From Nitrososphaerales archaeon (GTDB taxonomy: Archaea > Thermoproteota > Nitrososphaeria > Nitrososphaerales > UBA213): a stretch of 64,000 bases of DNA. Location: positions 768,001 to 832,000 of the forward strand of contig CBDAOC010000020.1 of the NCBI GenBank assembly GCA_965197925.1, given 5' to 3'. The position numbers were made by a program, and so were the translations under genes. The notes under the pieces were generated by a model. It saw only the letters and a list, made by a program, of their open reading frames with translations, did no database searches and was not told the origin of the DNA. Positions 36,484-39,345 of this stretch are shown here, piece by piece; positions within the stretch are counted from its first letter, which is position 1; every line of letters begins with the position of its first letter.

Positions 36484-37358
36484 CAACTCATCTCAAAACC
36501 CTACAATACATCAAAAATGATGCAAGATTAACAAATGCCAGGTAGTTTTCTGCCGTTCTTTCATACCTGATTCTTGTTCTGTGAAATCCATTCTTGAGCC
36601 ATGCAAGGAATCTCTCAACTACAAATCTTGTCTTGCTGTAATGTTTGTAATCATTATTTTGCAAGATGAACTTGGAATTTATTTTGTATGGGATGCAACA
36701 TGCAATATTTCTATCCCACAAATACATTCTGATGTATTTTGCATCATTTTGTCTGCATAAACTGATTCTATCTGTTGTATTGAATCATCATCAAGATAGT
36801 CTGAAATTGATCCTGTAACATCCATGCATTTTGTACTGTCATGTTCATTTGCTGGACTCAACAGTATGGATATTGGAAATCCGTTACCCTCTACTGCGGC
36901 ATGTATTTTTGTACCTGTTATTCTCTTGAATCCATTATATCCAGTTACATTGCCCCTTTTTTTATCAGGAATGGATGAAGAGTCAACTGATATTTTTTGT
37001 AGATTAATTTTGCCAGATTTATGTGCTGAGTGAATAGTACGTGATAGAATCTTTTTCCAGATTCCTTTTTGTTGCCATTTGTTTAACCTTCTGTTTGCAG
37101 TAGAATCATCACCATATCTTTTTGGCATATCGTCCCATCGGCATCCAGTAGTTAGAACATGGATTATTCCGTTAATGATTTTTCTATCATCATCCCTAGG
37201 CCTGCCAGTTTTTGCATGTGGTGGTATGTGTGATTCCATCATACTCCACTGTTTGTCTGATAATTCTTGGAATTTCATAAAATAATTTTAGATGTCGCTA
37301 TTCATAGATCTAAATGGTCGCTAAAAATTGTCTAAATGGTTAGTTTTGAGATGAGTTG
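36484..37358 (-). mobile_element. IS-B copy 1, IS5 family (IS427-like), 875 bp, defective
   Basis: Perfect 16-bp TIR CAACTCATCTCAAAAC; AAA flanks both ends; GRPR..DR...TGCRWDDMP, VDSS, GTKIH, RFVVERF; ADKGYD motif broken by a deletion. Confidence 0.93.
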
Positions 37359-38039: not shown

Positions 38040-38367
38040 CATTGAGATTCATGCTTGATAGGAACTGGAAAGGGTATAATGAAGGACTGGTAAGGAGAGG
38101 ATTAACTCAGGAGATGCGGGGATCGTTCAAAGGATGAAGAATTTCTGGATTTGGAAATTAAGCGAGAGGACCCTTTACTGAAGCAAAAGGAAGAATTCAA
38201 GCATGTCATTGAGAGTGCTACTCTTGAGCAAATGCAAGAAATGTTAAAGACATTTGCAAGATCATGTTCAGAGAGTAGCAGTAAGTGAAGAAGCGGAACT
38301 ACTAATCATACAGGGATGGAAATTTGTTGGAATATTACCGAACGGCAAGGTTATTCTACAGAAATAA
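38040..38367 (+). pseudogene. Probable C-terminal remnant of an archaeal tyrosine integrase
   Basis: Broken frames give ...TQEMRGSF...EEFLDLEIK... and QRVAVSEEAELLIIQGWKFVGILPNGKVILQK*, like archaeal integrase tails; ends 25 bp before a tRNA. Confidence 0.55.
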
Positions 38368-38392: not shown

Positions 38393-38493
38393 GGGCCCGT
38401 AGCTCAGTCAGGTAGAGCACCGGAAGCATTGGTGAAACTTTTAACTTGACTGGAGACATCCGGTGGTCTCGGGATCAATGCCCGACGGGCCCG
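38393..38493 (+). tRNA. tRNA-Lys(UUU) with two introns (38424-38436 at 30/31; 38444-38457 at 37/38)
   Basis: Acceptor GGGCCCG/CGGGCCC-G; removing both introns gives CCGGA-CTTTTAA-TCCGG and a 74-nt cloverleaf; BHB central helices CACC/GGTG and CTTT/GGAG. Confidence 0.9.
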
Positions 38494-38539: not shown

Positions 38540-39345
38540 CCATTAGGCAATGTTCCAATAATTGGTAGACAGATGAACATCAGACAAAAGGTTCAAGACC
38601 ATATCATTTGAAAGTCAAGAATAGATGTATTGGCATCCTGTTTGTAAGAAAAGGATTGATAGATCCATTCATTATATCTTTTGATAGTTGCTTAGTGAAA
38701 AAGGGATTAGATAGCACGAATCAAGCATGATGAACAATATTATTCCAAACTCTGGAATAGATGCAGATGCAAGTTGGGCTACAGCAGAACCAAGGGATGG
38801 GTATTCGGATACAAGATGCATCTAGCATGTAGTACTGGTTCGTTGATAGTTCCATTATCAGCTGATTTCACAACAGCTAACATTACTGATAACAAGATGT
38901 ATGAAAGCATAACATCTTCATTGCCTACAGGAATGGTAAGGTATGTTGTAGGAGATGAAGGATATGATGATCACAAGTTATGTGATTTCAGCAGGTATAG
39001 AGGGCATCCAGTATTCCCATTGGAAAGGTACAAGCATACTACAGATAATAATAGACTGGCATTGCTGCAGTTCTATAACTCTGAATATGGGCAGCATGTA
39101 TATTCTCGGAAGAGCATAAGCGTTGAGCCATTGATAGAGCATATGAAGGATGTATTTACCATAGACCCACTACCTGTTAGAGGATTTGATAAGGTAAGGA
39201 GTATAGTGTTGTTATCAGTATTGTTGTATCAGGTAATGGTTTACTACAACTAGACAGGAGGCCTCTTAGGGCATTGAAGTATATGTTGGGAAGCTAATAG
39301 TAATAATTTCAAAATAATATTATAATTGAATTATGCCCAAGTCTC
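38540..39345 (+). mobile_element. IS-A copy 2, chimeric: diverged 5' part joined to a near-identical 3' part; left TIR missing
   Basis: 38540-38775 aligns only loosely to IS-A; 38775-39345 is near-identical and ends GCCCAAGTCTC followed by AGATACTT. Confidence 0.85.

What the first reader, a model, noticed from the sequence alone, without database searches (positions are those of the whole stretch)
38393..38493. tRNA-Lys(UUU) with two introns bracketing the anticodon loop
Seen: the anticodon arm reads CCGG[AAGCATTGGTGAA]ACTTTTA[ACTTGACTGGAGAC]ATCCGG. The 13-nt first intron at non-canonical position 30/31 has a perfect CACC/GGTG central helix and a correct 3' bulge. The 14-nt second intron sits at canonical 37/38 with a CUUU/GGAG helix. 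The middle exon is only 7 nt and carries the anticodon. Established: multi-intron tRNAs are best known from Thermoproteales and need a broad-specificity splicing endonuclease. Inference: splicing is probably ordered, because the 31-39 pair needed by the second motif forms most easily after the first intron is removed. Standard annotation may call this gene undetermined or pseudo.
Basis: partly seen in the sequence, partly recalled or inferred. Interest (0 to 1): 0.7.

Follow-up and report, generated by a model that had tools for sequence, protein, structure and literature searches.

The report
Lysine tRNA with a helper intron
The only detected host gene for the AAA-reading lysine tRNA of an ammonia-oxidising archaeon is cut by two tiny introns, and the second intron is predicted to pair with the tRNA's own D arm, likely holding the precursor in the shape that gets the first intron cut out first.

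Summary
Confirmed. The gene is a real tRNA-Lys(UUU) with a 13-nt intron at 30/31 and a 14-nt intron at 37/38. All 8 same-family genomes share it, and it recurs in Nitrosocaldus and other basal lineages. It is the only host Lys(UUU) found; the one intact copy lies on a phage contig. The genome encodes the broad-specificity two-subunit EndA and RtcB. Multi-intron tRNAs with ordered splicing are a known kind.

The extra: intron 2's first nine bases are predicted to pair with the D arm. This extends intron 1's splice motif and hides intron 2's own (folding cost 0.2 versus 14.4 kcal/mol; 9.1 for motif 1 without intron 2). The complementarity is in 25 of 25 genes with a short first intron but 4 of 53 genes with only the canonical intron, and recurs with other letters in tRNA-Arg(CCU).

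Against: those 25 genes are kin, covariation is not significant, and tRNA-Ser(GGA) mostly lacks it. No RNA data were available. This scan noted the same helper-intron idea before, in a Hadarchaeota tRNA-Pro. I found it in no paper I could read, but two key papers were not held.

The parts
38393..38423 (+). Exon 1 of tRNA-Lys(UUU), nt 1-30 (acceptor 5' strand, D arm, anticodon stem 27-30)
   Evidence: near-identical in 8 of 8 family genomes
38405..38413 (+). D-arm target (nt 13-20) predicted to pair with the 5' part of intron 2 in the precursor
   Evidence: pair probabilities 0.82-0.99 at 37 C for the gene alone; with 20-nt leader and 10-nt trailer 0.72-0.87 for seven pairs, 0.56 and 0.11 for the last two
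38418..38421 (+). Exon half (nt 25-28) of the central helix of splice motif 1; pairs with 38431-38434
   Evidence: 100% paired in 22 distinct rows
38424..38436 (+). Intron 1, 13 nt, non-canonical position 30/31; relaxed hBH motif without an inner hairpin of its own
38437..38443 (+). Exon 2, nt 31-37, anticodon UUU at 38440-38442; nt 32-35 are needed both by the outer helix of motif 1 and by the central helix of motif 2
   Evidence: invariant in the family
38444..38457 (+). Intron 2, 14 nt, canonical position 37/38; central-helix strand at 38452-38455
38444..38452 (+). Helper (anti-D-arm) segment inside intron 2, predicted to extend motif 1 and to hide part of motif 2
38458..38493 (+). Exon 3, nt 38-73; T loop with A54 and G60; CCA end not encoded

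Best explanation
This is a tRNA-Lys(UUU) gene with two short introns that are likely removed by the archaeal splicing endonuclease in a fixed order, intron 1 first, with intron 2 predicted to act as a built-in folding helper. Step 1 (predicted): the precursor does not fold as a cloverleaf. Nucleotides 25-28 pair with intron 1, nucleotides 21-24 pair with 32-35, and the first nine bases of intron 2 continue this helix along D-arm nucleotides 13-20. This presents motif 1 and locks away nucleotides 32-35 and the first base of intron 2's own central-helix strand. Step 2 (inferred from known EndA and RtcB chemistry): the two-subunit EndA with its specificity loop cuts out intron 1 and RtcB joins G30 to A31. 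Step 3 (predicted): the completed anticodon stem competes with the helper helix, motif 2 becomes cheap to form, and intron 2 is removed. The 74-nt product receives CCA and is likely the host's only reader of AAA codons. Shown: gene anatomy, conservation, single host copy, presence of the enzymes, the sequence complementarity and its distribution. Not shown: expression, cleavage, order, or any need for the helper. Odds: two-intron Lys(UUU) gene about 0.97; intron-1-first order about 0.85; helper function under selection about 0.6.
For: Folding with constraints: full precursor, motif 1 costs 0.2 and motif 2 costs 14.4 kcal/mol; after intron 1 removal motif 2 costs 1.7; without intron 2 motif 1 costs 9.1. 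Shuffling intron 2 nt 2-8 raises motif 1 to a median of 5.8, and 2 of 150 shuffles match the native value. Motif 1 is cheaper than motif 2 in 25 of 25 short-intron-1 and 39 of 39 long-intron-1 genes folded; intron 2 lowers the motif 1 cost in 24 of 25 versus 20 of 39. D arm/intron 2 duplex at or below -8 kcal/mol: 25 of 25 two-intron genes with intron 1 up to 15 nt, 30 of 65 with longer intron 1, 4 of 53 with only the 37/38 intron; 37 of 37 where intron 1 has no hairpin versus 17 of 51 where it has one. The best-pairing 13-nt exon window is the D-arm window in 22 of 25 versus 1 of 48. All 28 Lys genes with the 30/31 intron alone have introns of 18 nt or more. In 7 Nitrosocaldus-type genes intron 2 is 46-66 nt and variable, yet its first 10 nt stay nearly fixed. 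tRNA-Arg(CCU) of this genome has the same layout with a different 7-nt segment exactly complementary to its own different D loop; 5 of 7 Arg genes with both introns show it at shuffle p<0.05. EndA alpha aligns to Aeropyrum EndA with the loop lysine and catalytic residues in place (K44 role from passages); beta subunit; RtcB. No other host Lys(UUU) found.
Against: The covariation test on 22 distinct rows was not significant (197 to 493 of 500 shuffles reached the observed values; one pair with changes on both sides), though the alignment does not model a one-base register shift in some rows. The 25 short-intron genes are kin: 24 of 25 share the unusual A54/G60 T loop and most fall in two of 21 exon clusters, so the counts overstate independent evidence. 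tRNA-Ser(GGA) with 29/30 plus 37/38 introns shows the complementarity in only 1 of 14 genes. Seven Arg(CCU) genes have a 13-17-nt 30/31 intron and no 37/38 intron, so short introns can exist without this helper (each has a D-loop intron instead), and 1 of 2 Arg genes without the 30/31 intron still has an anti-D-arm segment. About three of the helper pairs can arise simply because nt 11-13 resemble nt 32-34. After intron 1 removal the helper helix persists in the minimum-energy fold and motif 2 still costs 1.4 to 9.4 kcal/mol across the 25 genes. The folding model ignores tRNA tertiary structure, modifications and enzyme binding.
Confidence: 0.62

Rival explanations
1. An ordinary nested two-intron tRNA. 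The order is intron 1 first only because the two motifs overlap; the D-arm complementarity of intron 2 is a neutral relic, for example of the intron's origin as a fold-back copy of the D arm, kept by descent in one clade.
For: Motif 1 beats motif 2 also in 39 of 39 long-intron-1 genes, many with weak or no helper. Covariation not significant. Short-intron genes are close kin. Ser(GGA) lacks a conserved helper; one Arg gene has it without a 30/31 intron.
Against: Loops of 37/38 introns in single-intron orthologues vary freely and rarely match the D arm (4 of 53). The head of intron 2 stays fixed while the rest drifts in Nitrosocaldus-type genes. The match recurs with different letters in Arg(CCU) and tracks the absence of an intron 1 hairpin.
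Confidence: 0.28
2. The intron 2/D-arm helix is selected, but as a lock rather than a helper: it delays cloverleaf folding, end processing or modification until intron 1 is gone, or prevents a dead-end product in which intron 2 is cut first.
For: If intron 2 left first, motif 1 would cost 9.1 kcal/mol, a possible trap. Motif 2 pairs have probability below 0.001 in the full precursor at all five temperatures tried.
Against: With the head scrambled motif 2 still costs a median 10.8 kcal/mol, so the lock exists largely without it, while motif 1 rises from 0.2 to 5.8. The main computed effect is on motif 1.
Confidence: 0.07
3. A single-intron gene of another identity (ARAGORN's Val(GAC) with a 29-nt intron, or a single 27-nt excision), or a pseudogene backed up by an intact Lys(UUU) elsewhere.
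For: ARAGORN's call. An intact Lys(TTT) lies on contig C16. The T loop has A54 and G60, and insertion-sequence remnants flank the gene.
Against: No 27-nt excision gives U33 or a central helix. The GAC triplet is not kept in any of 8 relatives while the middle exon is. An intronless Val(GAC) exists on C18. C16 is a tailed-phage contig: 19 of 37 long ORFs hit phage families including head, protease and tail. A54 occurs in several other host tRNAs. Intronless and single-intron orthologues with the same exons exist.
Confidence: 0.03

Closest known systems
Nested multiple-intron archaeal pre-tRNAs (Sugahara et al. 2007, PMC1852824; Tocchini-Valentini et al. 2009, PMC2787110). Neither paper was held; known to me only through one sentence in PMC3978253 (passage) and the tRNAscan-SE 2.0 methods (passage)
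   Same: Introns so close that the last one forms its splice motif only after the other is removed; removal by EndA.
   Different: The passages I saw describe the later intron as merely waiting. Here the later intron is predicted to pair with the D arm and help the earlier one. The original figures may already show such pairings; I could not check.
Non-canonical and multiple tRNA introns of Thaumarchaeota, Thermoproteales, Caldiarchaeum and Asgard archaea (10.1101/614032, PMC3082918, 10.64898/2026.10.13.758758; passages)
   Same: Relaxed motifs at non-canonical positions, several per gene, in lineages with two-subunit EndA.
   Different: I found no mention of a 30/31 plus 37/38 Lys(UUU) gene or of Nitrosocaldus-type genes in these passages; the stored tRNAscan-SE supplement (cut when stored) had 0 hits for Nitrosocaldus and Lys-TTT.
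Ordered intron removal in Cyanidioschyzon merolae pre-tRNAs (PMC3728597; passages)
   Same: The anticodon-arm motif is processed last; order follows motif stability.
   Different: There the motifs fold independently; here they are mutually exclusive and coupled through intron 2.
Box C/D guide inside the archaeal pre-tRNA-Trp intron (PMC4090602; passage)
   Same: A tRNA intron whose sequence pairs with its own tRNA and has a job in maturation.
   Different: That intron guides methylation with C/D boxes and proteins; this one is 14 nt, has no boxes, and would act on folding for splicing.

Membership tests
Archaeal EndA-spliced (BHB-type) tRNA intron | 4-bp central helix two bases 5' of each cut | tested here: met
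   CACC/GGTG and CUUU/GGAG; motif 1 helix 100% paired in 22 distinct rows
Archaeal EndA-spliced (BHB-type) tRNA intron | 3-nt 3' bulge closed by an exon helix (h) | tested here: met
   Motif 1: 21-24 with 32-35; motif 2: 31 with 39 after intron 1 removal
Strict BHB (hBHBh') | Inner intron helix h' closing the 5' bulge | tested here: not met
   Intron 1 core has no hairpin; intron 2 shows none on inspection. Both are relaxed hBH/BHL as defined in PMC6379350 (passage)
Archaeal EndA-spliced (BHB-type) tRNA intron | Host encodes an EndA able to cut relaxed, non-canonical motifs, and a ligase | tested here: met
   Two EndA subunits; alpha has the specificity loop lysine and Tyr/His/Lys; RtcB
Archaeal EndA-spliced (BHB-type) tRNA intron | Excision and ligation observed in RNA | not testable with these tools
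   No RNA holder listed
Nested multiple-intron pre-tRNA with obligatory order | Last motif cannot form until the other intron is removed | tested here: met
   By computation only: 14.4 versus 1.7 kcal/mol; motif 2 pair probability below 0.001
Nested multiple-intron pre-tRNA with obligatory order | Order shown by intermediates or in vitro cleavage | not testable with these tools
   Needs RNA or enzyme assays
tRNA-Lys(UUU) | Cloverleaf with U33, UUU anticodon, A37, G73 after intron removal; orthologous to intronless Lys(UUU) genes | tested here: met
Box C/D guide-bearing tRNA intron | C/D box motifs flanking an antisense element | tested here: not met
   14-nt intron with no room for a box pair
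Split or permuted tRNA | Halves in separate genes or swapped order | tested here: not met
   Three exons colinear within 101 nt

The most novel reading that the evidence does not exclude
Archaeal tRNA introns cooperate: a canonical 37/38 intron carries a selected antisense segment against its own tRNA's D arm that refolds the precursor so that a minimal, hairpin-less neighbouring intron can be spliced.
Probability: 0.45. Interest if true: 0.62.

Novelty: new variant of a known kind. Interest (0 to 1): 0.45.

Why it matters
Why archaeal tRNA introns persist and pile up is an open question. If one intron is needed to splice its neighbour, intron loss becomes order-dependent, and short intron sequences are under selection beyond the splice motif. 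The 101-nt gene is a minimal test substrate, and Nitrosocaldus-type genes give a natural series with and without the helper. For annotation, this gene is missed or mislabelled as Val(GAC) by ARAGORN, although AAA is the fourth most used codon in long host reading frames (3.75% of 501,416 codons). The two-intron gene by itself is ordinary for this part of the archaeal tree.

Tried and rejected
Expression: no RNA holder listed; the runs laid were contigs and say nothing on splicing. Covariation count on alignment A1: not significant. Generality in tRNA-Ser(GGA): 1 of 14 genes (the first parse misplaced the exon border and was discarded). tRNA-Ser(UGA) and tRNA-Trp of this genome: no helper effect. 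A wider Arg(CCU) sample: a strict pattern hit 2 of 40 genomes, and a class-wide pattern hit only this genome, 1 of 251, in a draw dominated by two large families; the Arg sample therefore rests on 30 loci from 50 chosen genomes. Relaxed ARAGORN (-ps85) gave 2440 mostly false calls and was not used. Val(GAC), single 27-nt excision and pseudogene readings rejected. Papers not held: Tocchini-Valentini 2009 and Sugahara 2007. Literature searches that found no description of an intron pairing with the D arm to help a neighbouring intron, judged from listings and the passages read. bioRxiv supplements were closed, and the tRNAscan-SE supplement was cut when stored; the gene may be listed in tRNA databases that I could not see. 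tRNAscan-SE and SPLITSX are not available here.

Full report
1. Observation. They split into exon 1 (38393-38423), a 13-nt intron (38424-38436), a 7-nt exon with TTT (38437-38443), a 14-nt intron (38444-38457) and exon 3 (38458-38493). With both introns removed in silico, 74 nt remain and ARAGORN, at a relaxed threshold, draws a complete tRNA-Lys(ttt). That call fails: the GAC triplet is not kept in any of 8 relatives and an intronless Val(GAC) exists on C18. None of the 11 single 27-nt excisions that keep the stem gives U33. Contigs of 4 of 4 runs laid, from 3 studies, match the region letter for letter (one may be the source).

2. Organism and machinery. The genome has archaeal amoA. Named records with the closest genes are titled uncultured Nitrosopumilales archaeon (L105) and Candidatus Nitrosocaldus (L063, L072, L108); the tools did not name the family. 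Two EndA genes lie on C19. One aligns best to crenarchaeal catalytic subunits and keeps the specificity loop, with K37 opposite Aeropyrum K44 and Y120, H128, K159 in the catalytic positions (position matching read from the alignment, the triad itself recalled). The other lacks the loop and the histidine, as a structural subunit would. The loop lysine is needed for relaxed motifs (PMC3241643, passages). RtcB is present.

3. Single host copy. Searches of the 98.7% complete assembly found no other host Lys(UUU). ARAGORN's Lys(ttt) on C1 reads as tRNA-Phe with a 30/31 intron (by inspection). The intact Lys(TTT) on C16 sits among 28 CCA-ending tRNAs on a contig where 19 of 37 long ORFs hit phage families, including head, maturation protease and tail. 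AAA makes up 3.75% of 501,416 codons in long host frames, so the gene is likely essential.

4. Distribution. All 8 other genomes of the family have both introns at 13 and 14 nt. A pattern for the 30/31 intron matched 35 of 401 genomes of the order, this one included, and 0 of 321 in the three large families; it misses long or divergent introns. From 297 matches I parsed 188 distinct genes; the rest were duplicates or failed the parse. Of these 90 have both introns, 53 only 37/38, 28 only 30/31 and 17 neither. These counts reflect my patterns, not natural frequencies. The layout is therefore common in basal Nitrososphaerales and also occurs in a record titled Bathyarchaeota (L149).

5. Mechanism. 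Both motifs are relaxed (no inner intron helix). Motif 1 needs nt 25-28 paired with intron 1 and nt 21-24 paired with nt 32-35. Motif 2 needs the same nt 32-35 paired with intron 2, so the two exclude each other. The predicted fold of the precursor is not a cloverleaf: the motif 1 helix continues with intron 2 nt 1-9 paired to D-arm nt 13-20 (z = -4.0 against 200 shuffles). These pairs have probability 0.82-0.99 at 37 C, and seven of nine stay at 0.72-0.87 with flanks added. Constraint folding gives motif 1 0.2 and motif 2 14.4 kcal/mol in the full precursor, motif 2 1.7 after intron 1 is gone, and motif 1 9.1 if intron 2 is gone first. Shuffling intron 2 nt 2-8 raises motif 1 to a median of 5.8. 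So the order is predicted to be intron 1 first, and intron 2 is predicted to help.

6. Comparative support. A D-arm duplex at or below -8 kcal/mol occurs in 25 of 25 two-intron genes with intron 1 up to 15 nt, 30 of 65 with longer intron 1, and 4 of 53 genes with only the 37/38 intron; shuffle p<0.05 in 24, 20 and 2 of them. Split by whether intron 1 has its own hairpin, it is 37 of 37 without and 17 of 51 with (88 genes, 2 odd introns dropped). All 28 Lys genes with intron 1 alone have 18 nt or more. In 7 Nitrosocaldus-type genes the head of intron 2 is nearly fixed while the other 36-56 nt vary. tRNA-Arg(CCU) on C18 has the same 30/31 plus 37/38 layout, a third intron at 43/44, and a different 7-nt head that exactly complements its own different D loop; 5 of 7 Arg genes with both introns show this, and intron 2 lowers the motif 1 cost from 7.1 to 3.9 in this genome.

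7. Results against. The covariation count was not significant (197-493 of 500 shuffles reached the observed values). The 25 genes are kin: 24 share A54/G60 and most lie in two of 21 exon clusters. tRNA-Ser(GGA), with 29/30 and 37/38 introns, shows the match in 1 of 14 genes. Seven Arg genes have a 13-17-nt 30/31 intron and no 37/38 intron, and 1 of 2 Arg genes lacking the 30/31 intron still has an anti-D-arm head. The helper is thus not a general requirement. A neutral relic of a fold-back origin remains possible. The folding model omits tertiary contacts, modifications and protein. No RNA run was listed, so splicing is untested.

8. What is known. Nested archaeal introns in which the last motif forms only after the others are removed are described (PMC3978253, passage citing Sugahara 2007 and Tocchini-Valentini 2009; tRNAscan-SE 2.0, passages, which also names Thaumarchaeota as having multiple non-canonical introns). 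The two primary papers were not held. I read passages only of PMC4090602, PMC3728597, PMC3293823, PMC5829648, PMC3241643, PMC3082918 and PMC6379350, the abstract and passages of the 2026 Asgard preprint, and searched one stored supplement file. None described an intron that pairs with the D arm to assist its neighbour. This scan noted the same idea earlier for a Hadarchaeota tRNA-Pro (e1-5159483). I had written my reading before seeing it and did not test that note.

9. Verdict. The gene is a real member of a known class: relaxed-BHB, nested, multi-intron archaeal tRNA. The helper segment is a variant supported by computation and distribution, not by covariation or experiment. Interest 0.45; if the helper is confirmed as a recurring, selected device, about 0.62.

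Noticed in passing
G000:C18:22160-22290 (- strand); L313:161-291:-: tRNA-Arg(CCU) with three introns (30/31, 37/38, 43/44); the 37/38 intron starts with 7 nt exactly complementary to its D loop. ARAGORN labels it Gln(ttg).
   Followed up: yes
G000:C16 (150 kb; L303-L309): Tailed-phage contig binned with this archaeon; 28 CCA-ending tRNAs including Arg(ACG) and Lys(TTT), a tyrosyl-tRNA synthetase, family A DNA polymerase and ribonucleotide reductase. It inflates and confuses the genome's tRNA count.
   Followed up: partly
G000:C1:7599-7689, C20:487570-487662, C18:22160-22290 and window 38393-38493: By inspection four tRNAs of this genome (Phe, elongator Met, Arg(CCU), Lys(UUU)) carry an intron at the same 30/31 position, a possible sign of intron spread between tRNA genes.
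   Followed up: no
window 38475-38481; also G000:C19:364190-364277, C20:605600-605692, C20:487570-487662, C13:15530-15660: T loops begin with A54 instead of U54 in several host tRNAs, most with G60; the Lys form is shared with Nitrosocaldus-type genes. Effects on the usual position-54 modification are unknown.
   Followed up: partly
G000:C18:269713-269859 (- strand): Reads as tRNA-Trp(CCA) with a 28/29 intron and a 59-nt 37/38 intron holding box C/D-like motifs (by inspection); ARAGORN labels it Gln(ctg).
   Followed up: no
G000:C20:226815-226923 and C20:757212-757332: tRNA-Ser(GGA) and tRNA-Ser(UGA), each with 29/30 plus 37/38 introns; ARAGORN labels them Lys(ctt) and Trp(cca).
   Followed up: partly
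window 36488-37278, about 38050-38290 and 38774-39253: Insertion-sequence transposase pieces flank the tRNA gene on both sides (Pfam DDE hits for two of them). The upstream region differs from the promoter-like motif shared by the 8 family relatives.
   Followed up: partly
L015, L016, L023, L063, L108, L173, L175: In Nitrosocaldus-type Lys(UUU) genes intron 2 has grown to 46-66 nt by a purine-rich, unstructured, fast-varying middle.
   Followed up: partly
L017, L018, L028, L163, L149, L189: Other Lys(UUU) orthologues combine the 30/31 intron with a T-loop intron, or carry an apparent third intron after the anticodon stem.
   Followed up: no
L152:1495-1597 (G002:C11): A second, decayed copy of the two-intron Lys gene (87% identity, broken stems) in one family member.
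   Followed up: no
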